This document shows, in pieces, positions 31,401 to 63,491 of a stretch of 64,000 nt of DNA. Where the stretch lies: assembly GCF_018350175.1 (NCBI RefSeq), contig NC_058368.1, forward strand, positions 21,950,001-22,014,000, read 5' to 3'. Each line of letters opens with the position of its first letter. Position 1 is the stretch's first letter. Below the pieces are notes generated by a model. It was not told where the DNA came from. It was given only the letters and a program-made list of their open reading frames with translations, and did not search any database. A program made the position numbers and the translations under genes. The DNA is from Felis catus (Eukaryota).

Positions 31401-34400
31401 CAAAGACAGGATACAGCATTGTAAATATTTAAGCACTCAACATGGCAGCCCCTAAATGCATAAGGCAAGTTTTAACAGACATAAAGGGAGAAACTGACAG
31501 TAATACAATAATAGTAGGGGACTTTAATATCCTACTTACATCAGTGAACAGATCATCCAGGCAGAAAGTCAATAAGAAAACTATCTTTTTTTTTTTTTAA
31601 TTTTTTTAACGTTTTATTCATTTTTGAGACAGAGAGAGACAGAGCATGAACGGGGGAGGGGCAGAGAGAGAGGGAGACACAGAATCGGAAGCAGGCTCCA
31701 GGCTCTGAGCCATCAGCCCAGAGCCCGACGCAGGGCTCGAACTCACAGACCGCGAGATCATGACCTGAGCCGAAGTCAGACGCCCAACCGACTGAGCCAC
31801 CCAGGCGCCCCAAGAAAACTGTCTTTGAATAACACCAGACCAGATGGACTTAACAGATACACATATATAGAACATTCAAGCCAAATACAACAGAATACAC
31901 ATTCTTTCCAAGTGCACATAGAACATTCTATAGGATAGATCACATATCCCAATAAACAAGTCTTAATAAATTTAAGAAGACTGAAATCCTATCAAACATC
32001 TTTTCTGACCACAATGGAATGAAATTAGAAATCAATTACAAAAAAAAAAAAAGTGGAGAAACCATAAACATGTAGAGGCTAAACAATATGCTACTCAACA
32101 AGCAATGGCTCAATGAAAAACTCAAAGAGAAAATTTAAAAATACCTGCAAACAAATGAAACCCACTGGTCCAAAATCTTTGGGATGCAGCAAAAGAAATT
32201 TTAAAAGAGAAATGTATAGTGATCTCAAGAAACAAGAAAAATCTCAAACAATTTAAACTTACACCTCTAGAAATTAGAAAAAGAACAAGACCCAAAATTA
32301 GTAGCAAATAATAAAGAATAGGGCAGAAATAAATGTAAAAGAGACTAAGAAAAAAAAAATAGACAAGATCAATGAAACCAAGAGCTGAATCTTTGAAAAG
32401 AAAAACAAAATTGATAAACCTTTAGCCAGATTCATCAAGAACAAAAAGAGGATCCAAATAAATAAAATCAGAAATGAAAGGGGTAAAGTAACAACTGACA
32501 CTACAGAAATACAAAGGATGATAATAGATAAGAGACCACTATGAAAAATTACATGTCAACAAGTTAACAACCTAGAAGAAATGGGTAAGTTCACAGAAAC
32601 ATATAATTTTCCAAAACTATATCAAGAAAAAGAAAATCGGAATAGTCTGGTTACTAGTAACAAAACTAAACTGGAAATAAAAAAACTCCATTTAAAGAAG
32701 AGTTAATACATATTCTCAAACTATTCTAAAAAACAGAAGGGAAAGGAAAACTTCCAAATACATTCTATGAGGCCAGCATTATCTTGATACAAAAACCGAA
32801 TAAGTATATTACAAAAAATGAAACTACAGGCCAAGATTCCTGATGCAAAAATCCTCAACAAAAGATTAGCAAATCAAATTCAACAATACATTAAAAAGAT
32901 CATTTACCATGATCAAGTGGGATTTATTCCTGGGATGCAAAGATGGTTCAATATATGCAAATAAATCAACATGATACTCAACATTAACAAAAGGATAAAA
33001 ATCATAGGATCATCTCAGTAGATTCACAAAAAGCATTTGACAAAATTCAACATTGTTCATGATAAAAAAAAACTCTCAACAAAGTGGGATTAGAAGGAAC
33101 ATATCTCAACATAACAAAGGCCATAAATGACAAACTCAGAGCTAATATCATACTCAGTGGTGAAACCTGAGAGCTTTTCCTCTAAGATCAGGAATAAGAC
33201 CAGGATGTCCACTCCCACGACTTTTATTCAACAGAATACAGGAAGTCCTAGCCACAGCAATCAGACAAGAAAAAGAAATAAGAGGCATCCAAATTAGTAA
33301 GAAAGAAATAAAATTGTCACTATTTGCAGATGACATGATACTACATACAGAAAACCCTAAAGACTCCACCAAAAAAACTACTAGAACTGATAAATGAATT
33401 CAGTAAAATCAGAGGATACAAAATCGATGTACAGAAATCCATTGCATTTCTCTACATTAACTAATACAAAGAGAAATTAAGAAAGCAATCTCATTTACAA
33501 CTGTACCAAAATAGGGATGCCTGGGTGGCTCAGTTGGTTAAGCATCTGTCTTTGGCTCAGGTCATGATCTCGCGATTTGTGAGTTTGAGCCCTGTGTCAG
33601 TCTCTGTGCTGACAGTATAGAGCCTGGAGCCTGCTTCATATTCTGTGTCTCCCTCTCTTTGTGCCCCTCCCTCTTCCTCTCTCTCTGAGATAATAAACAT
33701 TAAAAAAAAAATTGTGCCACAATAATAAAATACCTAAGAATAAACTTAACCAAGGTGGGGGGGGGGTGCCTGGGTGGCTCAGTTGGTTAAATGTCTGACT
33801 TCAGCTCTGGTCATGATTTCACAGTTTGTGAGTTTAAGCCCTGCATTGGGTTCTGTGCCGACAGCCTGCTTCAGATTCTGTGTCTCCCTCTCTCTCTCTG
33901 CTCCTCTTCTGCTTGCACCCTCTCTCTTTCAAAAGTAAATAAACATTAAACAAATTTTTTAAATGGGGCGCCTGAGTGGCTCAGTCAGTTAAGCATCCAA
34001 ATTCGGCTCAGGTCATGATCTCCCAGTTGGTGGGTTCGAGCCCCGCATCGGGCTCTGTGCTGACAGCTGAGAGCCTGGAGCCTGCTTCGGATCCTGTGTC
34101 TCCTTCTCTCTCTGCCCCTCCCCTGCTCGCACTATTTCTCTCCCAAAAATAAACATTAAAAAATTTTTTTTAAAAAACTTAACCAAAGTGAAAAACCTGT
34201 ACTCTGAAAATGATGGATGAAAGAAATCAAAGACAAATGGAAAGATAGTCCATGCTCATGGATTGGAAGAATATTGTTAAAATGTCTATACTACCCAAAG
34301 CAATCTACAGATTTAATGCAATCCCTGTTAAAATATCAACAGAATTCTTCACAGAACTAGAATAATCCTAAAATTTGTATGGAACCACACCCACACACCC

Positions 34401-48500: not shown

Positions 48501-51124
48501 GTAGATCAGAAGACCAGAATTTCTGGCTTTCTCTGAGAGTATTTTTTTTTTTAATTTTTTTTAACGTTTATTTATTTTTGAGACAAAGAGAGACAGAGCA
48601 TGAACAGGGGAAGGGCAGAGAGAGAGGGACACAGAATCGGAAGCAGGCTCCAGGCTCTGAGCCATCAGCCCAGAGCCCGACACGGGGCTCGAACTCACAG
48701 ACCGCGAGATCGTGACCTGAGCTGAAGTCGGATGCTTAACCGACCGAGCCACCCAGGCACCCCCTCTGAGAGTATTTTAAAATAAGTATCAAACGGGGTG
48801 CCTAGGTGGCTCGGTCGGTTGAGCATCCGACTTTAGCTCGGGTCATGATCTCACAGCTCATGAGTTCGAGCCCCGCATCAGGCTCTGTGCTGACAGCTCG
48901 GAGCTTGGAACCTGCTTCGGATCCTGTGTCTCGCTCTCTCTCTGCCCCTAACCCACTCACATTCTATCTCTGTCTCTGTCAAAAATAAATAAACATTAAA
49001 AAATTAAAAATAAAATAAAATAAGTATCAAACTGTAATGACATCTCTAGTATTTGCAAATGCCAATCATATGCAAAATAGTCAATCTGTAACACTCATAA
49101 ACACTAAAAAAACAACAAAAAGAATTCTAGGGGAGCCTGGGTGGCTCAGCTGGTTAAGTGTCCAACTTTTGATTTTGACTCAAGTCACGATCTCATGGTT
49201 TGTGAGAGCGAACTCTGCACCAAGTTCTGTGCTGGCATCGCAGCCTGTTTGGAATTCTCTCTACCTCACTCCCTCCCTCTCTGCCCCTCCCCTGCTCATG
49301 CTCTGTCTTTCCCTCTCAAAATAAATAAGCATAAAAAAAAATTCTACACTGACATTTTTTTTGTCAATTTAATATGTAGCTGAAAAGACAGACAAAATAA
49401 GGCAATTAACTTAAGAACTTTCTTTATGAAGACACTTTTGTTTTTGAAATTGTTCCCTGGTGTAGCACAAAATACTTTCAGGAACTTCCTTTAAACTACT
49501 TCTTAAAGGTTTTAGTATAGGTGTTACTTCCTAAAAATAAAGATTATGTGTCACAATGTCAGATTTCCTTTCATACGATTCTACTTTATGCTAAGGAATC
49601 TTCACTGAAATGGTAAAAGGAGAAAGAAACAGTCAGAAAAATTTAGCCTATTCTCCTAAGTACTTTAGAGCCATTTAAGTATTTGAAAAGCTGAACTGGT
49701 ACTGAAAGAAATACTGTTTGGGGCACCTGGGTGGCTCAGGTGGTTGAGCATCTGACTCTCGATTTCAACTCAGGTCATGATTTCATGGTTCATGTATCCC
49801 TCATGTATCCCTCTCTTTCTCAAAATAAATAAACTTAAAAAAAAAATACTGTTACCCTCCACTTTAAAAGAAATAATCTAGGACTGCTGGTTCAGGCAGC
49901 AGTGCATGTGACTTTTGATCTCAGGGCTGAGTTTAAGCCCCACATTGGGAGTAGAGATTACTTAAAAATAAAATCCTTAAAAAAAAAATACTCCAGGAAA
50001 AATAATTTTTTAGTTAAAAAAATTGCCAACTTGGTAGCTTTTAGTATATTAATAACATACACAAAGACATCTTTTTTTTTTTTTTTTTTTTTTAAAGTAG
50101 GCTTCAGGTCCAACACGGGGCTTGAACTCTTGATCCTGAGATCAAGAAGTGAACTGAGATGATTCAAGTCAGATGCTCAACCAACTGAGCCCCCACGTGC
50201 CCCTATACACAAAGACATCTTAAGCTAAATTTTATTCAAAGACTTGATTACCTAGGGATGTTAACAAGTAAATACCTTGTTAAGAGACTCATGAACCTTT
50301 ATCCTACATAAAATACTAAAATTTATGACTTTTCAAGTTGATGGGAAAAATTTTTTTTATATATTTTATCTATTCTTACGTCAAATGATTAGAAAGAATA
50401 ATTCTCTTTCCGGAAATGACAGCATTGACAACATAAAAAAAATTTAACCTATATACATACAGAAATGTACAGTCTTCTGGAAAGGAGTCTTCATATGATG
50501 TAGAAGGCAATGAACCTGATTTGTTTTCCTGTTCATTCTGGATCACTGATGTATGATCTACATGAAAAAAATACAAACATGAGTATTAAATATATCAAGT
50601 TAAGAATCATTTACTCTAATATCTAAATAATATCTTTATTGATTAGAGATACATGGCGCCCTTAAATCTGCAAACATATGAAAATATCAAGATTAAATTA
50701 AAAAATCAGGTGTGAATATTTTCAAAAATATTGACAAAATAAGATATGATCAAGTAAAAGACTTAGGGTAGAAGATACTTCTACTGGAGAAAATCTAGTT
50801 TGCCCTGAACTTTATTTGAATTTTAATCAACCTTTAAGGTAAACATCAAGTATCCTTATTTCTGCCTGTATTTTATAGAAAAATAACATAGCTCGTACTA
50901 CAAAAGGTCAAAAAATGGAAAATTTATGTTATCTTTTGCTTTCTCATTGTTCCCACTGCTATCTATATTTTTGGAGGGTGGGGTATTTGGGTACCTCTTT
51001 TTGTACTTCCACTTGTCTTTTCATATTAGTCTTTCCTATATCTTTCTTCACTTAATTTCTTTTTATTTAAAAAAAAAATTTTTAACATTTACTCATTTTT
51101 GAGACAGAGTGTGAGTGGGGGAGG

Positions 51125-51174
<50 letters not shown>

Positions 51175-54100
51175 ATCCGATGCAGGTTCCAGGCTCAGAG
51201 CTGTCAGCACAGAGCCCAACACAGGGCTTGAGCCCATGAACTGCGAGATCAGGACCTGAGCTTAAGCTGGATGCTTAACTAACTGAGCCATCCAGGTGCT
51301 CCTGCATTTAATTTCATCCTCTCTCTATCTTGTGTTTTTTCTACTTCATCTATTTTTACTCTCTAACATGACTACAATAATAGAAGTAAGCTGTGTATTT
51401 AGTGAAAAAAGTTATGGATTCCCTGTTCTTATTTTGAAAAATGGTTATGTAGAATATTCTATGTTTGGTTTAAAGATATTTTTTAAACATGTTTTTTCCT
51501 ATGCATTGAGGACCTTTAAGAAAAAAAGGGATTCTCATCTTGCTTCAGGTTATTAACTTACATTGGTCTTTTACTGCAGATCAATCTTATTAAGAAGAAA
51601 AAGTTTGGGGCACCTGGGTGACTCATTTGGTAAAGTGTCCAACTCTTGGTTTCAGCTAAGGTCATGAATTCACAGTTCATGGGCTCAAGTCCCTCATAGG
51701 GCTTTGGGCTGGCAGCAGGGAGCCTCCTTGGGATTCTCCCTCTCTCACTCTCTCTCTGCCTCTTCCTTGCTCACACACTCTCTCAAAATAAACATTAAAA
51801 AAAAAAAGGGGGGGCGCCTGGGTGGCGCAGTCGGTTAAGCGTCCGACTTCAGCCAGGTCACGATCTTGTGGTCTGTGAGTTCGAGCCCCGCGTCAGGCTC
51901 TGGGCTGATGGCTCAGAGCCTGGAGCCTGCTTCCGATTCTGTGTCTCCCTCTCTCTCTCTGCCCCTCCCCCGTTCATGCTCTCTCTCTCTCTCTCTGTCC
52001 CAAAAATAAATAAAAGTTGAAAAAAAAAAAAAAGGAAAAAAACTGTAAGTAAATAAAAGAATAGTTTAAGTTATAACATGAGGCCACTACTTGGCTATCT
52101 GGAAAATAATTATCCCTCTTTAATTATCAAGATAAAGGTTTAAAATCTGATAGTTGAAAAGAGCTATAATACCTGATTAAAATTAAGTTTTACAAATTAA
52201 GCGTTTCTGATTTTTCCCAACTAATTTCTTTGCATAAATCATAAAAATCCATACTAACAAATATGAATAGAATAAATGTATATAAACATAATTAAAAATA
52301 AAACTTACTGAAACATGGAGATTTTATTTATTTTGAGAGAGAGAGAACAAACCAGCAAGGAGGGGCAGAGAGAGATGGGGACAGAGAATCTGAAGCGGGC
52401 TCTGTGTTAACAGCAGAGAACCTGATGCGAGGCTTGAACTCAAGTACCATGAGATCATGACCTGAGCCAAAATCAGATGCTTAATGGACTAAGCCACCCA
52501 GGAGCCCCCAAACGTGGAGATTTTAAAATTAATCATCAGATAACGGAGGAAAGGGGAAATAATAACTCCCCTCAAGAAAACAGTATCCAATCCTTTGTTT
52601 GGGGACATAGCACATATTTACAGTTAGACACAAACAAAGAAAATAAAGGTAATCAGTGGTTTAGGACTCAAGTTGGATATGGGATACCTTGTTTTGACCT
52701 TAACATGAAGTCCTTTTGTCTTTCCCAGTTTCAATGTTTTTTAAAAAGTAAATACTAACATGAAACTTTATTACTAGAAAGTTTTTAATCTTTGTTTTGC
52801 CAACAATGTCAATTACATAACTCAATTCCTTACTTACAAATATTGCTCTATACCATTGGCAAATATATACTCTTGATAAATTCATTACATTTCAGAGGAA
52901 CCATATAAAAATACAAAATTGTAATATTCAACATTTCTATTGATAAAATTATCACAAAAAAACCAAAACTCAATTTACTTTGTTAGCGAGAAATAAATTG
53001 TTTTAGAATTAGTTCCTCTTACCACCTCCTGCATTTAAAAGCCTCTTCTTGCAAAACTAGGGTGATCTCTCAAGTATGTTGATTCCAAATGCTACTGAAA
53101 GATACTGAGTAAGGTTGTTTTCTTAAAGAAACTACTCTTGGGGCACCTGGGTGGCTCAGTCGGTTAAGCGTCTGACTTCAGCTCAGGTCATGATCTTGCG
53201 GTTCGTGGGTTCGAGCCCCGTGTCAGGCCCTGTGCTGACAGCTCAGAGCCTGGAGCCTGCTTCAGATTCTGTGTCTCCCTCTCTCTCTGACCCCCCCCCG
53301 TTCATGCTCTGTCTCTCTCTGTCTCAAAAATAAATAAACATAAAAAAAAAAAAAAGAAACTACTCTTCTAAAATTATACATTAGCTACTGAAATTGAGAA
53401 TACTTTTGAATAAGAAAAAGGTTTCTTTAAAATAGACTCATGATGTTAGGCTATATTTTCAGAGACTTAAAACCTTAAGACCCCATATTATGTAAGTTAA
53501 AATTATTATAATTTGCTAATAATATTTAGCAGCATTAAAATCCAGTAAAGTACCTTCTCAATATTTTAGGAAATTTGAGATAGACTAAGATTTATAGGAG
53601 AGTGATTCTGATAAAACAACTTTTTATTTTCCTAGTTCTGGTACAGTATCTTTGATCAATTCCTCCAAAACCTAATTTGTTTAGAGTCTGCAAGACTAAT
53701 GGTCTAATAATCTAGAAATAAAAAAATTTTACACTAACTTATCTATGCCAGAATATACCTTTCTAGTACTGTTTTTCACACAAGGTGGGTTTACAGTAGT
53801 CTGGGGTCTTAGAATTTTTTGAAGAAGTGATACATTTGTTCATTTCCTAAGAGGCTTAGAAGAGTGTGCATTTCCTATCGCTGGATGGGTAGGACTTTTT
53901 ATTTAATAGGGACGCTGATTTATATAATTTACCAATATAGGTCTTACATTTTATATTAAATTATCTTTAGATAATCTTACATAATCTGAACTAAATTAAG
54001 CCTGCATCAAGTCAAGAAAATAACAGAATACTCAAAATTGGGATTATTAATGCACGTACCCTTTATCAATGTTGAATTGTTACTTATGGTTGCTTCATTC

Positions 54101-57100
54101 ACTAGAATCATTGCTTGGATGTATTCTGTTAAGGAAAGGAAAAATGCATGAAAACCAGCAGCAGCAGCAGCATTTTCATTGTGCCAGCTACTGTGCTAAA
54201 TAATTTATGTACTTTATCTTAATCTTCATTAACTCCTCTGAGAGATTCTTATGATTACCTGCATTAGAAACAGAAATTGAAGCTTAGGAGTTAAACTATT
54301 TATTCCAGGTCATTCAGCTAGGAGTTGTTAGAACTGGATTCAAAACTAGATATATCTGACTCATGAAGGAATGAGAAGGAACATTAAAATGAAAAACAGC
54401 GCTACTGTTTGGACAAGCAAACAAAAGATTAATGTTATAAAAACATCCACAAAGTATTAAGAAGAGTCCAAATGAAAATTTGCTTGAATATCTTATGTCC
54501 TGAAGGAAAGAAGTAAATTTCTACCTAAAAGTCTTCTGTCCTACAACCAACCAGGGTTGAAAACAAAGAAACAGAAAAAATACAAACTTGGCTGACGGAA
54601 CTGACTGCTGAAATAGAAGGCAAGTTCTGATTAAAGCAGGCAAAATATCGTTACATGTACTTTCGCATTCTTAAAAAACATTAGGTGTCTCTGCGTAATG
54701 GGGTGGTGGATAATTTTTGTTATACTTTTCTATTGGTACTAAACGTTGTACAATGAGCAGATATTACTTTTGCAATACCCATCACCCCTCAAAAAGAGAT
54801 AAAAAGAGAAAGCAAAGATAAAATGTGGGGAAAACAAGGGAGCCTGACAGAAAAAGAGATAAACTCATTAGCTAACATTCAAAGTAATCATTTTCACCCA
54901 CTTTTACAAAATGTCTATGGCATATGGCAAAAGCGTGTTTTTGTCAAAGCAGAGTACAAACACACACAAAGCAAACAGAACTGATAGGCTCTTAGATAAC
55001 AAAAGAAACATAGTGGAAACAGCACTGTATTATACTGCCAGTGGGTAACATTTAACATTAAATGTATTAAAAGTTTTTTGTGCTTCATACCTTTATTTGT
55101 GGCAGACCCATCTTTAATCTTTTGTTTCAGTGATTGTAACACATTTTGCACTTGTTCAAAAATGGAGTCCACTTTTCCATCATCTTCCAGCTCCATCCAG
55201 AAAGTTTTTGCATCACCTATAATGAAAGTGAATAGCTTAAGAGCTCAATAAAAATAGACTGTAATTTCCCCAAGGCATATGTTATAGAGAATCCACGTGG
55301 TTTCTAAATAATGTCAAGATTTAATTGGTCTGTTTTTTTCCTCGAGGAAAAAGATTTTTATCACTGTTTCTTTATAAAGAATAGCAAAGAATATGACCTA
55401 AATATCTTACTCATTTCTGCTAACATAAAAATATGTTGAAAACTTTAATGGTACTATTTCTGGTGTCCCTGGAAAACAGAAGGAATGGCTTCATTCTAGG
55501 CTGGTGGTAGATGTACGTATAAGCATTTTAAAAGTTTCAGAGATATAACCTCCACTGAGTACGGAAATGGTTTTAGAATGAAACATCTCAAGAATTGGTG
55601 AACTAAATGTCTAACAATAACGTTTTTAAATCTTTTATAATTTTTAAATAATTATATGAAGCCAAAATAATGTTTATACTTTTTATAGATAGCTATATAG
55701 ATGAGCCAATATTTCATATGCCCAGCAAATAAACACCTTAGTCATAAATTCCTAGAGAGAGGTGCCTGGCTGGCTCAGTTGGTAGAGCATGCAACTCTTG
55801 ATCATGGGGTTGTGAGTTCAAGCTGCATGTTGGGGATAGAGTTTACATAAAAAAAAAAAATTTCCTAGAGGAAATAATTCTTTGAAAGCTGAACACAGAA
55901 ATATGAGAAATACAATTAAACTGGCAAAGCCCAATCTCACACAAAAGTAACAAAAATACCTAAAATGTTAACATTTATTTGTTAAAATGTTAAATGTAAA
56001 AACATATAAAATGTTCAAAATTAACAGGGCCTTAAAGAACAGAGAGACATGATTATTGCACTTTAGAAAGGTCACTTGAGAAGCCATTCAGAGGATTAAT
56101 AGAGAGCCTAGTAAGCTTACAAAAAATATATTTTCCTTAATAAAAATTAAACCTACATCTCTAGGTTCAGCAGTGGGGTGAGAATAGTCATAAAGGCTTA
56201 GGCCTCATAGTCCCAAATCTCCCTGGCAAAGTCACCTTACCCAAAGGGGATCTCTGGCTAATTAGGGATGCTGCCACCATCGCAGTCTCAGAAGGGGTGT
56301 TGTTTCCCTGTTGTCACTTTGGCCTGATGCCTCCAAGACCAAGCCTACTTTTAACTCCCCATAGGACAGCTGAGACAAGATTTTAAACAAATGCAATGTG
56401 AGAGGACACAAAGGATGAAGAAAGAGGTATTAGAGGCAGGAGAAGCCATGCCATGGAGAGCCTTTCACTTGAGTTTTATACAAAAGCCTATGGGAGCCAC
56501 TCAAAAGGTTTAAGCATCTTATATGTGATTAGTTTCTTAAAAGGTCACTCAGGTGGCAGGGGAAAGAGGGAGGAATCAAGAGTGATTTCTAAGTTTTTGA
56601 CTTGGGCAACCATATGCACAGTAATAGTATTCATTGAGATAGGGAATAAAGACAGAAGACAAGTGAGAAATTTAAGTAGGGCAAGTACACTGGGTATACA
56701 GGCTCCAGAGTAAGATCTGGTCCAGTTATACGAATTCTGGAGTAAATGGTACATAAATGCTTGAGTAGATGTAATTAAGGACAACGTATACAATGAGAAG
56801 AGGGTTTTTTTTCTTTTTAAATGTTTACTTATATTTGAGAGAGACAGAGAGACAGAACATGAGTGGGGGAGGGGCAGAGAGAGAGGGAGACACAGAATCC
56901 GAAGCAGGCTGCAGGCCCTGAGTTGTCAGCACAGAACCTGACATGGGGCTCAAACCCACAAACCGTGAGATCATGACCTGAGCTGAAGTCAGACGCTTAA
57001 CTGACTGAGCCACCCAGGCGCCCCGAGAAGAGGATTTTCTATATATAAGACACAAGTATAAGAAAAAAGAATCAGGGAGATCAAGAAGGAGCAAACAGGT

Positions 57101-58703
57101 GGAAGGAAAACCCAGGAGAATAGCATATCAGGAGTCAGTGGAAGAACAGAAGTGGTGATTAATAATCTGGGCTTTGGAGTTCAGATGCATTTGTGTTTGA
57201 ATTCCAGCACTAGCAGTCATTAAGCTGTGTGACCACATCTATAAAATGGGAATAGTGATAGCATATAGCTCACAGAGTTGATGTGCAGATAAGCATGTGG
57301 CCTTTATCTAGAAATTACTGTAATTTAACAGGGACATAGTCTTAAGCACAAGAAATTAATCTCTACTTGTGGAACTTTAGATATCATTTGGCTGAGAGGG
57401 AAAAGTATCTTGTGAAGGACCTTCCCAGAATCCTTAAAATCATTTTTTCACTGAGAGATCACCAACAAAAATCACAGCTTTTAGACAAAACTATTCATGA
57501 AAGCACTTAATTGGTTGTTACTATGTTTCTTTTCATGAATGAGTTAATACTCCACACTAGGGATTTATCTTTATCTGAGGTGGACATCTAGACAGAAAGG
57601 ATTTTGAAAGATACTTAGAAATAGCTTCTAGTAGCATTATAATCTTCTGGAATCATCTACAACTCTCACCTGTCCTGAGAAAGCCAGCAGCATCACTGCT
57701 TAGTGATGTTGAAAAGACCACAATTAGGATTCATCTGAATTTGTTTTCCAGTGACTATCATTTAAAACTGTGTTCAAAATGTCAATTCATGATACCAAGT
57801 TATTCTGATAGGAAATACTTAAATTATCTGAAAAGTGAACAGGGTAAATTACTAGTTTTAGAATGGATTAATGGACACTGGAAATAGAATTTAAGAAAAT
57901 AAAGCCAATCAGAAAATACTGAAACTGTCTGCTTGTATAATAAATGAAAGTAATTTAGAAATTCATATTTATTTATTCTGGGTTTTTGATATTGTTCTTT
58001 ATGGTATCATTATTTCATATGGCTAGTTTTAATTCTCATTTAAATGGTTCTTATTCCTCACGTCTTCCCTCTTGATCATTTTTGTCTTCTCAGTATGGGA
58101 ATTTTTAACCACAGTAATATTAAGAAAAAAAAAGGTAACTGATTTATCTGAAAAATGAGATTAACAGATCCAGTTAATAACTTTTTTGAAGAGGCTAAAT
58201 GAATATCACATGGAGAAAAAATTGAGTCATTTCATTTCAACTGTATGCCATCTAGATGTTTACCAAAATGTAAATAATTTTGGTTTCTTGCTCCTTTTCT
58301 TTGTACTGTATGTATGTTTGAGATTATAATCTAATACTGTAAATATTTCAGTATATTGCACTAGAAAACACTTACAAGGAATAAATCCTTGAACTGAAAA
58401 TCAAATCAGTATACTAATATTGCTACTTGCCTGTAGAAATGAAGAATACCATCTCATTATTCTACTGTTTGTCCTAACTTGCTCCCTTAGCTAGATATGA
58501 CTATTGCAGGGACATAATCACTAAGTGGGAAGTATAGTTGCTTTGGAAAGAAGACAAATTATATAGTTACATTATATTGTGTCTCTCAATCTCCCTTGAC
58601 ATACACTGTCTATGTAAAAAGGCAATACTCAAGAATCACAGCTAGATGAGTTATTTGCTAGACACCTGTTTTTGGAGTATTAACGAAGTACACTGATAAT
58701 AGG

Positions 58704-58762
<59 letters not shown>

Positions 58763-61650
58763 TATATATATCCATCCCTACACACACACACACACACACA
58801 TCCCTGGAGGTGCTTCAGGGCATTGGTCTAGAGGATCTCTATGATGCCTTTGAGTCTGTGATTAGCAAAGTGTGATCTATGAGCCTTTGGGGTCCCCAAA
58901 TCCTTTCAGGGAATATGCTAGGTCAAATTATTTTAATAGTAATACTAAGACATTATTTGCTCTTGGTCGGCCGCTTAACCGACTGAGCTACCCAGGCACC
59001 TCTGCAAGTACACTTTTTAATTTAGAGATTTTTAAGTATCTTGTAGATGAAGTGCATACACTTACCCATTCTTTTTCAGACACTTCATGGCTTAAATTTT
59101 AGAGTCAGTTTAGAGTTCCCCATACTGGCATTTTCTTTTCTTTTCTTTCCTTTTTTTTTTTTTAAGTTTGTTTTGAGAGAAAGAAGGGTGCAAGCATGTG
59201 AAGGGCAGAGAGAGAGAGGGAGAGAGAGAATCCCAAGCATGTTTCGTGCCATCCGCATGAGCTTGAAGCGGGGCTGTACCTCATGAACCCTGAGATCATG
59301 ACCTGAGCCGAAACCAAGAGATGACACTTAACTGACTGAGCCACCCGAGCACCCATGGAGCTTTATTTTCAAGTTGTGTTGAATATGTATGTGAATTTTT
59401 ATAATGTTGGCATTATTCCATTGAATCTTACAGTTAATCTTATTATATCTTATTGATATAGAATATTTACTTATATATTCTACAATGCTTTTCAATGGAG
59501 TTTTAAAGGATTTAAGGAGTTGGGGTGCCTGCGTGGCCCAGCCAGTTGAGCATCTGCCTTCAGCTCAGGTCATGATCTCATGGTCTGTGGGTTCAAGCCC
59601 CATGTTAGGCTCTGTGTTGATAGCTCAAAGCCCAGAGCCTGCTTTGCATTCTGTGCCTCCCTCTCTCTCTGCCCCTCCCCTGCTCCCAGTCTGTCTCTAT
59701 CAAAAATGAATAAATGTTAAAAATTTAATGAATAAAAAAAAAAGACATTATTTGCTCTCTTTTTTTTTTCTAGAATGACTTTAACTGATGGTACAAAAGC
59801 ATTGGTGAGTAAAAGTCAGTATGTCTTAGCATGAATCAAGGGGATGGCACCAAGCTACCAGTAAATTTTCTAGTATAGTACCAGTATACTTTTCACCATC
59901 AATTTCACTTAAGAATATCCTTAATAAAGCAATATAAATGGTTACCACAGTACAATGGCTGTCTCAAGCAAAAGCACTAGTGAGACTGTTTGAATTACAG
60001 GCCAAACCAGCTAATTTTTTTCATGGAAAACTATTTTTACTTAAAAGTACTAATAAAAATTATAGTATTTTTAGACTTGGGTGTTTAACACACATTTTCT
60101 TGAAGAACAAAAAACAAAAAACAAAGTGAGCCTACCACCTGAAGTTCAATGTTGACAGCATTTGTTGCTAATTCACACTACCAAGTTAAAATTGGAAATT
60201 TGTAAACTTTACATGTGCCCTGGTAAGCCTGATAGCTTCTCAATAATTAATCACTTTTCGAGGAAATGGGTAGCAATATTAACAAATGTGATTTTTTAAT
60301 ATTGTATGATGAAATGTGTCAATATCTGGAAAATCTGCATGATTCATTGAACCAATATTTTCCAAGTGGCCAATGCATATTATAAAATCATAAAACACCT
60401 ATTCAATGTGCAATAGATTTTCTGTAACAGAGTGTTAAAAAACTCACAGATATGTGTTCAAATTTCACACTACAACTGACCTGGAAGGAGTAACTACTTG
60501 TTGAGTTTTATAGTTGTATCCAAAAAAAAGTCCACAATTAGCTGAAAGGCTATTAATACTCTTCCTTTTTTCAACTTTTTGTCTGTGTGAAGCTTCATTT
60601 TCTTTATACATTTCAACCAAAGCAACATATCACAATAGACTGAATGCAGAAGTACCTGTGACTCTATACTGATATAAATAAATGACTGAATAAATACATA
60701 AATGGGAGAAAGGAGCTAAATCTCCCTTGGAGAAGAATTCCAAATAATTAATGTAGATATTCCATTCTCAAAGATGGGGAGCATAATCCCCATTCCTTGA
60801 ATATGAACTATATATGAGGATTTCCTATCAAAAGTACAGCAGGGAAGGAAAGGGGAGAAAAAAGTAATTTACAGTGGAGAAACATAACACTATGTCTGAC
60901 ATAACACTATGTCAGCCAGGTGATCAAGCTCAGTATCAATGAGAGAGAAAGCATGTTGATATCATGTACTCTTGGCATAATGTGGTAAAAATGGCACTTT
61001 ACCAATATGGTCTTCTTCCCAAAACTTGTAACCCCAGTCTAATCATGAGAAAAATAAATAAAACAATAATTACAATAGAGGGGTATCCTACAAAATACTT
61101 AGATACAAAATACTACAAAATAAAAAATAAGTCTGAGCAACTGTTATATCCAAGAGGACCCTATGAAGATATGACAAGTAAATACAATGTGGGATACTGG
61201 AACAGAAAAAGACATCAGGTAAGAACTAAGGAAATATGAATAAACTATGGACCTCAGTTAATAATAATGGTTCATTAATTGTAACAAATGTACCAGATAA
61301 AAATAAGATGTTAATCATCAGTAAAAGTGGGTGTAGAAGATATGGTAACTTTCTGTACTATCCTCTCAATTTTTCTTTAAAAAGTAAATCTAAAAGTGTT
61401 CTAAAAAGTAAAGAATAATTTTACAAAAGTACATTAAAGAACTGACTTAGCTTTACAGATACACAATTAGTTATCGACTATCAAAATTTTGGCTACATGA
61501 GAATAAGTCCTAAATTCCTTCAAATGTAGAACTGTCACTTGCAGTGAAAAGCCTTGAAAATTCCACAATTTGGCTAAATTAAGTAGTCTACATACTTTTA
61601 AACATAACGTTTAACAATGGTTTTCCAAACCTACCATTTTTTTCTCCCAT
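14794..61650 (-). CDS. SETDB2: SETDB2 histone H3K9 methyltransferase, complete spliced CDS (13 coding exons, 2115 nt, 704 aa): MBD-like domain, pre-SET, bifurcated SET, post-SET
   Basis: Exons joined by hand: 61650-61635, 55216-55091, 54125-54060, 50557-50461, 42240-41677, 27459-27343, 26602-26433, 23945-23729, 22987-22888, 21500-21407, 18715-18375, 15810-15722, 14911-14794. Lengths are 16+126+66+97+564+117+170+217+100+94+341+89+118=2115. All introns GT-AG, phases consistent. Protein runs [22 protein letters not shown]...[14 protein letters not shown]...ELTWDYGY...[13 protein letters not shown]. Confidence 0.98.
15722..15810 (-). CDS. SETDB2: SETDB2 coding exon 12 ([30 protein letters not shown])
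   Basis: ttttaacag|CAT acceptor; ACAG|GTTTGA donor; 89 nt; completes the NHSC motif. Confidence 0.97.
17277..17432 (+). repeat. Polypurine microsatellite (GGAA)n-(GGGGA)n-(GGAGA)n
   Basis: Directly visible; produces the spurious low-complexity ORFs at 17238-17625. Confidence 0.97.
18032..18238 (+). mobile_element. 5'-truncated carnivore L1 3' UTR insertion with 16-bp TSD
   Basis: Flanks AAAGATTTGCTGACTT (18016-18031) and AAAGATTTTCTGACTT (18239-18254); AATAAA plus A tail. Confidence 0.85.
18375..18715 (-). CDS. SETDB2: SETDB2 coding exon 11, end of insertion and C-half of SET (…[17 protein letters not shown])
   Basis: tttcttag|AGGAT acceptor; AAT|GTGAGT donor; 341 nt; ORF 18204..18656. Confidence 0.97.
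19667..20439 (+). mobile_element. Solo LTR, MER34-like (ERV1), with a nested SINE at about 20030-20218
   Basis: TG...CA ends; CCCAAAATATGCTTCTTTGACATAAGATTATTTT start; internal AATAAA; TTTTCCTCCCCTACA end. Confidence 0.75.
20948..21278. mobile_element. hAT-Charlie MITE, MER58B-like
   Basis: TIRs TAGAGGTTGGCAAAC / GTTTGCCAACCTCTG; 8-bp TSD ATACAGAC / ATATAGAC. Confidence 0.88.
21407..21500 (-). CDS. SETDB2: SETDB2 coding exon 10 ([31 protein letters not shown])
   Basis: cttttaag|GGA acceptor; AAAA|GTAGGC phase-1 donor; 94 nt; not in the ORF track on this strand. Confidence 0.93.
22888..22987 (-). CDS. SETDB2: SETDB2 coding exon 9 ([33 protein letters not shown])
   Basis: ttttcag|AGAA acceptor; ATG|GTAAAA donor; 100 nt. 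Confidence 0.95.
23729..23945 (-). CDS. SETDB2: SETDB2 coding exon 8, SET insertion ([11 protein letters not shown]...FSKKRKIEV...LKEPVT)
   Basis: ttttag|GAAGA acceptor; GTTAC|GTAAGT donor; 217 nt; basic KKRK cluster (possible NLS). Confidence 0.95.
26433..26602 (-). CDS. SETDB2: SETDB2 coding exon 7, end of pre-SET and N-half of SET ([23 protein letters not shown]...[23 protein letters not shown])
   Basis: attgacag|CATT acceptor; TCAG|GTAAAG donor; 170 nt; GWG SAM-binding motif. Confidence 0.98.
27343..27459 (-). CDS. SETDB2: SETDB2 coding exon 6, pre-SET ([39 protein letters not shown])
   Basis: cttccttttag|AGCA acceptor; ACTGG|GTAAGA donor; 117 nt. Confidence 0.97.
28570..36455 (+). mobile_element. 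Near-full-length degenerate L1 (5' UTR, ORF1, ORF2, 3' UTR, A tail), antisense to SETDB2, with about six nested SINEs
   Basis: YY1-type CAAGATGGC at 28576; ORF1 relic about 29870-30750; ORF2 start ATG 31087 with LNVNGLN; RT motif FADDM at 33323; ORF2 C-terminus near 35700; many stops and frameshifts. Confidence 0.93.
36477..37925 (+). mobile_element. Second L1 ORF2 segment, truncated at both ends, directly behind the tail of the first
   Basis: QKSVAFL...KYLGINL...KNKWKDIP; parallels 33432-35262. Confidence 0.9.
39510..39578. repeat. (TA)n microsatellite
   Basis: Directly visible, with one C interruption. Confidence 0.97.
41677..42240 (-). CDS. SETDB2: SETDB2 coding exon 5: MBD-like domain (FQRRHAK...[21 protein letters not shown]...DNFSF) and start of pre-SET ([18 protein letters not shown]...CDCSEGC)
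   Basis: ttttaaacag|ATCT acceptor; GACAT|GTGAGT donor; 564 nt; ORF 41673..42212. Confidence 0.98.
42396..43176. mobile_element. Solo LTR, MER21-like
   Basis: CAATTCTGACACTATCTA and CAGTCCCACAAGACTGTCCCCACTTCAGATGCCA motifs. Family assigned from memory. Confidence 0.7.
43634..44100. mobile_element. hAT-Charlie MITE, MER3-like, split by a young SINE (43755-43980, TSD AAATGTGGCTAGCATG)
   Basis: CAGCACTATCCAATAAAACTTTCTGCATTGATGGAAATG start; perfect 16-bp TSD around the SINE. Confidence 0.8.
44972..45606 (+). mobile_element. Solo LTR (ERV1-like, family not assigned)
   Basis: TGTAAG...TTTGACA termini; LTR-like 3' region (CTTTGTAATTTTTCACT, ATAAACTGGAATAGAGCTCAG). Confidence 0.65.
50461..50557 (-). 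CDS. SETDB2: SETDB2 coding exon 4 ([33 protein letters not shown])
   Basis: tttcatgtag|ATCAT acceptor; TTTCT|GTATGT donor; 97 nt. Confidence 0.95.
54060..54125 (-). CDS. SETDB2: SETDB2 coding exon 3 ([22 protein letters not shown])
   Basis: ttccttaacag|AATAC acceptor; AAGG|GTACGT donor; 66 nt; not in the ORF track. Confidence 0.95.
55091..55216 (-). CDS. SETDB2: SETDB2 coding exon 2 ([41 protein letters not shown])
   Basis: ttatag|GTGATG acceptor; AAAG|GTATGA donor; 126 nt; overlaps ORF 54915..55196. Confidence 0.97.
58706..58800. repeat. Compound (CA)n/(TA)n/(CA)n microsatellite
   Basis: Directly visible. Confidence 0.95.
58880..60655. mobile_element. Charlie1-like hAT DNA transposon remnant, interrupted at 58964-59741
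   Basis: GGGGTCCCCAAATCCTTTCAGGG...AATACTAAGACATTATTTGC resumes after the insert as ACTGATGGTACAAAAGCATTGGTGAGTAAAA and ends near AGACTGAATGCAGAAG. Confidence 0.7.
60660..61420 (+). mobile_element. Old L1M (L1MC/MD-like) 3' end fragment
   Basis: GAATAAACTATGGAC, CATTAATTGTAACAAATGTACC and TGTAAATCTAAA-like 3' UTR motifs. Confidence 0.65.
61635..61650 (-). CDS. SETDB2: SETDB2 coding exon 1 (MGEKN+G; start codon)
   Basis: ATG GGA GAA AAA AAT G|GTAGGT. The phase-1 donor fits the next exon (G|GT GAT GCA). Confidence 0.93.
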
Positions 61651-61998: not shown

Positions 61999-63491
61999 CT
62001 GTAAAGAAAACAACAAAGATTGGTATATATTTGTAAGGAATAAAATATATATAAGAAAAAAAGACATAACAATGCCTCTATCTTTTAAAATAGCATAAAC
62101 TATTATAGAAACAAGAATACATATTAACTGGAAAAATGTGTAAAATATCAAAATTATGCAATTACAGAGAAATTAAGTATCACCCATATTTAAAATACTG
62201 TCAATTAACATAAACTATCCCCATTTTTTTACTTGTTTTTTAATTTTTTTTTTTTATGTTTATTTATTATTGAGAGACAGAGAGAGCATAAGCATGGGAG
62301 GGGCAGAGACAGGAGGAGACACAGAATCAGAAGCAGGCTCCAGGCTCTGAGCTGTCAGCACAGAGCCCAACACAGGGCTTGAACTCATAAACCACGAGAT
62401 TGTGACTGGAGCCAAAGTCGGACACTTAACCAACTGAGCCACTCAGGTGCCCCATTTACTTTTTTAACTTTTTAAATTTTTAATAGATACTTTATAAAAA
62501 CTTTTAAAATGGGGATAATAGCATTAACTACCTCAAAGGCATGTTGTGAGGATAAGAGTTACTTAGAATGGTGCCTGGCACATACAAAGGACTCAATAAA
62601 CACTAGCAATTATTATTATTCTTTCAGTATATATACTTTAAAAATAAATTTTGGATTTTAGTGTATACAATTTCTTAATAATCTTCTACTGGTAACATAT
62701 CTTGCACTTTTCCCCCTCATTAATATTTTTCTATAATATGACTTTTAAGTGGCTGTATAATGTACTTTGGTCAATAAACCACATATTATAGTACACTCAA
62801 AACTTTTAGTAATTAAATTTTAATAAATTATTAATTAGTACTGTACATAAACCTCTGTATTGGGGATTTAGATTATTTCCATTTTTTCAATATGATAAAT
62901 GCTGGAATATACTTTATGCATATCTCTGATTATTTCCTCAAGAATACACTTAGAGATGGAACTACTAGGTCAAAAAGCGATCAATAATTCTCAGTCTCAG
63001 GATATTAATCAACATATGATAAATTCTGCTTCCACTCCCACACCAAGCCCAAATGTCAGATTTTTTAAAATTAAAAAATATAGTCATGCTAAAGACAAAA
63101 AGGGAATTTTCTATGGACCAAGTCTGTGAGACCTCCCTAGGGAAAAGAAACAGATGGGAAGCTGAAGAGATAATGCCAACCACCATCATAACACAGCAAA
63201 TCCTCTCAGAGAAGATGAATGTACAACCCAGAGTCATCAAATACCCAAGGAAAGCTACACCATCAAAAAGAGACTTAACAAGCCCACCGAAAGATGGGCC
63301 TATCGTCAAGAGGAAAACAGAGCATCCTGAAAATAATTTTAAAACAAATGTTATTAAGGCACCTGGGTGACTCAGTTTGTTAAGCATCATGATCTCATGG
63401 CTTGGGAGTTTGAGCCCCACTTCGGGTTCTGTGCAAACAGCTAAGAGCTTGGAGCCTGCTTCAGATTCTGTCTTGGTCTGTCTGTCTGTCC

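What the first reader, a model, noticed from the sequence alone, without database searches (positions are those of the whole stretch)
58947..59758. 778-bp composite retrocopy (SINE head + unique DNA + SINE + unique DNA + SINE) inside one perfect 17-bp TSD
Seen: AAGACATTATTTGCTCT occurs at 58947-58963 and again at 59742-59758, the second copy directly after AATAAA and an A run. The Charlie1-like host resumes cleanly after it. The insert holds a cut-off antisense SINE head (from 58964), about 140 nt of unique AT-rich DNA, a full antisense SINE, about 165 nt more unique DNA, and a sense SINE ending in poly(A). Inference: one L1-mediated event copied the 3' end of a Pol II transcript from another locus that was polyadenylated at a SINE tail (or a SINE 5' transduction). 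A repeat masker would report three independent SINEs and miss this.
Basis: partly seen in the sequence, partly recalled or inferred. Interest (0 to 1): 0.7.

Follow-up and report, generated by a model that had tools for sequence, protein, structure and literature searches.

The report
Retrocopied DNA ending in old SINE
A 778-base piece of cat-family DNA holding parts of three short repeats was most likely copied in one step from the tail end of an RNA into a gene's intron, a known kind of event that repeat annotation would miscount as three separate insertions.

Summary
Observation confirmed: a perfect, window-unique 17-bp direct repeat (58947-63, 59742-58) brackets 778 bp that end in an A-run (0.025 such repeats expected per 64 kb). 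The insert lies antisense in the first coding intron of a SETDB2-like gene, inside a decayed hAT fossil. New here: the three Can-SINE pieces differ in age (old subfamily-I middle copy, 22% diverged; terminal copy 14%, 0 of 13 CpG kept; cut head 3 of 4 CpG kept), each keeps an endonuclease-like site at its own 5' junction, and perfect TSDs occur only on younger SINEs (8 of 24 vs 0 of 16). So the terminal SINE was an old passenger that lent its poly(A) signal (59709, 25 nt from the end), not the mobile element. Best reading (0.8): one L1-primed, 5'-truncated copy of an unspliced Pol II 3' end, i.e. an orphan 3' transduction or monoexonic retrocopy. Donor locus and empty site were not found or testable, so the driver (L1 read-through or host gene) is open. 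Known class; modest interest.

The parts
58947..58963 (+). 5' copy of the 17-bp target-site duplication
   Evidence: exact repeat; site matches the TT/AAAA nick consensus at only 4 of 6 letters (read by eye)
58964..59002 (-). Can-SINE head, positions 1-38, cut at the insert's 5' end; youngest piece; 1-2 nt at the junction depart from the SINE
   Evidence: 4 differences in 36 from the window majority, 3 of 4 CpG kept; 6/6 TT/AAAA site 16 nt upstream in its own sense
59003..59134 (.). spacer 1, non-repeat DNA, 33% GC
   Evidence: no second copy in window
59135..59355 (-). full-length old Can-SINE with the 7-nt head insertion (subfamily-I type)
   Evidence: alignment; 22.1% non-CpG divergence, 0 of 4 CpG; 5/6 nick site 14 nt upstream; own TSD not detectable (11/15, p 0.39)
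59356..59521 (.). spacer 2, non-repeat DNA, 24% GC; both ends are 5' flanks of SINEs
   Evidence: no second copy in window; nick-like sites at both ends
59522..59733 (+). full-length Can-SINE without the head insertion (subfamily-II type), older than the event; supplies the poly(A) signal
   Evidence: 13.9% non-CpG divergence, 0 of 13 CpG; 5/6 nick site 17 nt upstream
59709..59714 (+). first AATAAA on the + strand of the insert, 25 nt from the last non-A base
   Evidence: dog 3'UTR mode 22-24 nt (PMC11699766)
59718..59734 (+). possible decayed 3' copy of the terminal SINE's own TSD (partner 59505-59521); weak
   Evidence: 11 of 17 in register; 7.6 bits, reached by 22% of 1722 mismatched flank pairs, by 2 of 41 with the same flank
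59734..59741 (+). terminal A-run (8 nt, 10 with the first two TSD bases)
59742..59758 (+). 3' copy of the 17-bp target-site duplication
59759..60660 (+). host: decayed hAT-transposase DNA (Charlie1-type by recall), right of the insert
   Evidence: 3 of 5 database proteins match 59929-60138 at 44-52%, E about 1e-11, none match the insert; Atlas FAM200/ZBED5 cluster 0.90, lead only; Pfam no relevant hit in 6 pieces
55216..61650 (-). SETDB2-like gene: start-codon exon near 61650 and next exon at 55216; the insert lies antisense in the intron between
   Evidence: exon junctions; MBD, Pre-SET, SET in downstream exons; gene name from recalled N-terminus

Best explanation
One L1-mediated target-primed reverse transcription event inserted a 5'-truncated cDNA of an unspliced RNA polymerase II 3' end. 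At a donor locus three Can-SINEs had inserted one after another into unique DNA (shown: different ages and nick-like 5' junctions; inferred: that this happened elsewhere). A Pol II transcript crossed the two antisense SINEs, met the first AATAAA in the tail of the old sense SINE and was cleaved and polyadenylated about 20 nt further (inferred from spacing). L1 ORF2p primed on the tail at a nick in the hAT fossil, stopped 778 nt up inside the youngest SINE's head, and repair left the 17-bp duplication (TSD and A-run shown; mechanism from established L1 biology). The promoter was either a source L1 reading through (orphan 3' transduction) or a host gene or lncRNA ending there (monoexonic retrocopy); I put these near even. 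The event is felid-age and probably neutral: its poly(A) signal faces away from the host gene.
For: Perfect unique 17-bp repeat with the second copy directly behind an A-run. Terminal SINE lacks an adjacent TSD but has this displaced one; the other full-length copies reach at most 12 nt at a displaced position. Age order: perfect TSDs of >=13 nt on 8 of 24 window SINEs under 12% divergence, 0 of 16 at or above 12% (Fisher p 0.013), while the terminal SINE is at 13.9% with 0 of 13 CpG and the head keeps 3 of 4 (p 0.006). Nick-like sites before all three SINE heads score 6, 5, 5 of 6; joint chance 0.0003 on intron background, 0.002 on spacer background, 0.145 for ordinary SINE copies. First + strand AATAAA is at 59709, 25 nt from the end; dog mode 22-24 nt, with antisense SINEs upstream and sense SINEs at 3' ends (PMC11699766). 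14 DNA-type runs from 10 studies hold 0.75-0.86 of the words of 58300-60600, above the 0.64 ceiling for DNA lacking the insert, so the sequence is not an assembly one-off.
Against: No donor and no empty site seen: no genome held, no reads laid, spacer motif gave 1 chance hit in metagenome contigs and 0 in viral contigs. Outer nick site is only 4 of 6 to consensus and the A-run is short (8-10 nt) and could be the SINE's own tail. Inner TSDs of the middle and terminal SINE are not significant (p 0.39 and 0.22). No microhomology at the 5' junction. The head's age rests on 38 nt. Continuity of the host across the insert is recalled, not computed.
Confidence: 0.8

Rival explanations
1. Template-switch chimera or 5' filler capture: an ordinary SINE RNA was reverse transcribed to its 5' end, then ORF2p or repair jumped to unrelated RNA/DNA that supplied the other 558 nt.
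For: The terminal SINE is exactly full length; 1-2 non-matching bases at the outer 5' junction. Such chimeras are established for L1 (recalled).
Against: The terminal SINE is too decayed to be the mobile template at the time of a still perfect TSD, and has a nick-like site 17 nt upstream plus a weak inner repeat, as a native junction would.
Confidence: 0.06
2. DNA-level templated insertion at a staggered double-strand break; the A-run is merely the SINE's own tail.
For: Short A-run, imperfect nick site; no splice junction to prove an RNA step.
Against: The insert ends at a poly(A)-signal distance typical of mRNA ends and the duplication has TPRT length; a DNA break has no reason to end there.
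Confidence: 0.06
3. Twin-priming variant: same RNA origin, but the 5' part (head, spacer 1, middle SINE, part of spacer 2) is inverted, so all three SINEs were sense on the RNA.
For: 5' inversions occur in 13-22% of L1 and pseudogene insertions (PMC12016303 passages); all antisense pieces sit 5'.
Against: The rest of the head's SINE (about 190 nt) is absent, whereas 46% of inversions have the two cDNA ends within 20 bp; no pairing of the TSD end with the SINE continuation; a sense young SINE would have offered an earlier poly(A) signal.
Confidence: 0.05
4. Three independent SINE insertions in local DNA, with the 17-mer a chance or repair-made repeat.
For: SINEs cover 15.6% of the window and often cluster; each has its own nick-like site.
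Against: Chance expectation 0.025 per window before asking for the A-run position; the head is cut exactly at the left copy; spacers show no hAT homology.
Confidence: 0.03

Closest known systems
Orphan L1 3' transduction (PMC12350158: 48 in 1,019 human genomes; PMC4862182: transduced lengths 51-1570 bp)
   Same: TSD, poly(A), 5' truncation, no L1 sequence, unspliced non-exonic-looking DNA (61% SINE), length in range.
   Different: Source L1 not shown; the 3' end is defined by a Can-SINE signal; fixed-age rather than polymorphic as far as seen.
Monoexonic processed pseudogene / 3'UTR-only retrocopy (PMC12350158: 216 of 292 polymorphic ones monoexonic; PMC7692494 non-coding retrocopies)
   Same: Same hallmarks; SINE orientation pattern matches dog 3'UTRs.
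   Different: No parent gene, no coding remnant, SINE density high for a 3'UTR.
Can-SINE-imported polyadenylation signals (PMC11699766)
   Same: Sense SINE with AATAAA at the transcript end, antisense SINEs upstream, signal 25 nt from the end.
   Different: That paper's abstract and first half of Results treat living dog 3'UTRs; here the evidence is a genomic fossil copy in a felid.
SVA 5' transduction; Alu transduction
   Same: Unique DNA 5' of a retroelement inside one TSD.
   Different: There the element is young and active; here it was old. A search of 118,489 AluY confirmed no Alu-driven (3') transduction (bioRxiv 2024.04.29.591526, part 1 of 3 read).

Membership tests
L1-mediated (TPRT) insertion | target-site duplication of about 7-20 bp | tested here: met
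   17 bp, perfect
L1-mediated (TPRT) insertion | 3' poly(A) directly before the 3' TSD copy | tested here: met
   8-10 A; short, could be SINE tail
L1-mediated (TPRT) insertion | endonuclease consensus TT/AAAA at the nick | tested here: inconclusive
   4 of 6 by eye
L1-mediated (TPRT) insertion | empty site with one TSD copy in an orthologue or allele | not testable with these tools
   no genome, no reads laid; host consensus recalled only
Orphan L1 3' transduction | no L1 sequence in the insert | tested here: inconclusive
   61% is SINE; the 298 nt of spacer match nothing in the window; no repeat library to exclude an old L1 scrap
Orphan L1 3' transduction | donor locus downstream of a source L1 | not testable with these tools
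   donor not found
Orphan L1 3' transduction | poly(A) signal 10-30 nt before the tail | tested here: met
   59709-59714, 19 nt before the A-run
Processed pseudogene / retrocopy | match to an exon of a parent transcript, introns lost | not testable with these tools
   no parent found; no ORF of note in the insert
SINE-driven (Pol III) transduction | terminal SINE young and active at the time; no Pol III terminators in the carried DNA | tested here: not met
   13.9% divergence, 0 of 13 CpG; 13 T>=4 runs on +
Charlie1 hAT fossil (host) | hAT transposase remnant and match to the Charlie1 consensus on both sides | tested here: inconclusive
   right flank matches other decayed copies; Atlas lead; Pfam and word search negative; terminal repeats not found; consensus not available

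The most novel reading that the evidence does not exclude
Old Can-SINE tails that terminate Pol II transcripts act as a standing 3' handle for L1: carnivore genomes hold a sizeable, unannotated class of SINE-terminated composite retrocopies that repeat maskers count as independent SINEs, biasing SINE counts, ages and presence/absence phylogenies and shuffling unique DNA; this locus would be a type specimen, findable genome-wide by the displaced-TSD test (old SINE, no adjacent TSD, perfect distant TSD).
Probability: 0.2. Interest if true: 0.55.

Novelty: new member of a known kind. Interest (0 to 1): 0.27.

Why it matters
It is a fossil record of a germline transcript ended by a Can-SINE poly(A) signal, linking two known facts (SINE-imported signals, L1 orphan transduction) in one felid locus. 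It shows a blind spot of repeat annotation: an old SINE can sit in a young insertion, so SINE age and locus age disagree. If traced, it barcodes an extinct source L1 or a lost transcript end and is a clean lineage marker. No effect on the host gene is indicated.

Tried and rejected
Donor search: none in the window; earlier findings by sequence and by words gave nothing; a 22-nt spacer-2 motif hit 1 metagenome contig, which matched only 13 of 40 and 8 of 40 bases beside the seed and lies in a long microbial-type ORF, so chance; 0 viral contigs. Second host copy for an empty-site comparison: an 18-nt right-flank motif gave 57 prokaryote loci, none extending past 30 nt; protein-based scan of viral contigs 10 candidates, 0 confirmed; plasmids and phages no match. 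No reads or contigs were laid on the locus, so junction support, allele state and expression are open. Three RNA-type runs hold 0.38-0.43 of the words, close to the insert's share of 0.36; unlaid, so no evidence. Inner TSD test not significant. T-over-A skew of the trimmed spacers (0.20) is opposite to the host gene's mean (-0.07) but reached by 12 of 158 windows: not used. P0001 and P0002 are unrelated repeats. Names for P0003-5 could not be obtained. In one search the head was one base out of register; one search corrects it. One 5'-truncated copy (48156) was left out, and the two insert SINEs out of the 40.
Full report
Setting. The window is felid DNA dense in Can-SINEs (54 merged hits, 43 of at least 150 nt; the run list includes a feline metagenome). 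A minus-strand gene with MBD, Pre-SET and SET exons is SETDB2 by its recalled N-terminus; the start-codon exon is at 61650 and the next begins at 55216. The finding lies in that intron, antisense to the gene. No whole genome was held.

Observation. The 17-mer occurs exactly twice, at 58947-58963 and 59742-59758. Forty order-4 Markov simulations give 0.025 such repeats within 2 kb per window. Of 134 A-runs of 7 or more, five are followed by an exact upstream copy of at least 13 nt; four enclose one SINE and only this one encloses 778 nt. The insert holds SINE positions 1-38 in antisense (59002-58965), 132 nt of spacer, a full antisense SINE (59135-59355), 166 nt of spacer, a full sense SINE (59522-59733) and 8-10 A. 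Spacers have no second copy in the window. Fourteen DNA-type runs from 10 studies hold 0.75-0.86 of the sampled words of 58300-60600, where DNA without the insert could reach 0.64; the list ranks best holders and one may be the source sample, so this shows the sequence is real, not that it is fixed.

Host. Right of the insert the frames show hAT-like remnants (motif identity recalled). An unfiltered HMMER search gave 5 proteins; three short ones match 59929-60138 at 44-52% (E about 1e-11) and none match the insert. The Atlas offered a FAM200/ZBED5 cluster at 0.90 with low recognition, a lead only. Pfam (6 pieces) and the word-indexed search found nothing relevant. That this is Charlie1(a) and that it reads on across a single 17-mer agrees with my memory of the consensus but no call tested it.

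Ages. Against leave-one-out majority sequences of window copies, the middle SINE belongs to the class with a 7-nt head insertion and is 22.1% diverged (0 of 4 CpG); the terminal SINE belongs to the class without it, 13.9%, 0 of 13 CpG. PMC4084570 (passages) places the first type in early Feliformia (about 45-60 Myr) and the second in felids and linsangs (about 35 Myr or later); my assignment is by indel pattern. The head differs at 4 of 36 positions and keeps 3 of 4 CpG (p 0.006 against the terminal SINE). Perfect adjacent TSDs of 13 nt or more occur on 8 of 24 copies under 12% divergence and 0 of 16 at or above it (p 0.013). So the outer TSD and the head are younger than the terminal SINE: the SINE at the 3' end was cargo.

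Inner junctions. In their own orientation all three heads have a TT/AAAA-like site 14-17 nt upstream (6, 5, 5 of 6); joint chance is 0.0003-0.002 on background and 0.145 for ordinary copies. Each SINE therefore seems to have inserted into the DNA that still flanks it, so the insert is a stretch of genome with history, cut at both ends. A decayed repeat of the 17 nt before the terminal SINE lies just before the A-run (11 of 17), which would be its own TSD nested inside the outer one, but 22% of mismatched flank pairs score as well; the middle SINE's TSD is not detectable (p 0.39).

3' end. The first AATAAA on + is at 59709, 25 nt from the last non-A base. In dog 3'UTRs the mode is 22-24 nt, upstream SINEs lean antisense and terminal ones sense (PMC11699766, abstract and first half of Results). 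The hexamer that touches the A-run is part of the run. Thirteen T-runs on + exclude a Pol III transcript.

Mechanism. Shown: TSD, A-run, signal spacing, age order, nick-like inner junctions. Inferred: a donor elsewhere, a Pol II transcript ended by the SINE, TPRT with 5' truncation. Confidence 0.8. Open: whether a source L1 or a gene drove the RNA. In humans 48 orphan transductions and 216 monoexonic pseudogenes were counted (PMC12350158 passages), which favours a gene; 61% SINE content favours intronic or intergenic DNA. Dog L1 transductions are documented and often parentless, and the pipelines miss inserts under 70% L1 (PMC13141329 and PMC13756887 passages). Rivals: chimera 0.06, DNA-level insertion 0.06, twin priming 0.05 (rates from PMC12016303 passages), independent SINEs 0.03.

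Against. No donor or empty site was seen (all negative or chance; no reads laid). The outer nick site is 4 of 6, the tail short, the head only 38 nt.

Novelty. The class is known. Nine literature searches listed no paper on this locus or on SINE-terminated composite retrocopies in felids; I saw listings for most and passages only of PMC9599045, PMC4862182, PMC7692494, PMC13298077 and part 1 of 3 of bioRxiv 2024.04.29.591526. No supplements were read; insertion tables in the canine and feliform supplements could hold like cases, and the library lacks most subscription papers. Verdict: real, well spotted, new member of a known kind; interest 0.27.

Noticed in passing
window 50057-50221 (-): Short (131 nt) Can-SINE-like element without the CT-rich body, with a long A tail and a perfect 17-bp TSD; looks young for so short a form.
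   Followed up: partly
window 48531-49032: Two SINEs head to head 31 nt apart, each with a perfect TSD (15 and 17 bp) whose inner copies abut: a reused target site.
   Followed up: no
window 33514-34166 and 51605-52042: Tandem same-strand SINE runs (three and two copies), the later ones apparently in the A-tails of the earlier.
   Followed up: no
window 63023-63370 (+): 115-codon open frame ending at a SINE head in the intron upstream of the SETDB2-like start exon; no Pfam or Atlas hit.
   Followed up: partly
window 28221-57019: ARAGORN tRNA genes; all coincide with SINE heads and are false positives.
   Followed up: yes
window 60882-60915: 17-bp head-to-tail duplication, 16 of 17 identical, no insert between.
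   Followed up: no
window 58708-58800: CA microsatellite 150 nt left of the insert, usable as a linked marker.
   Followed up: no
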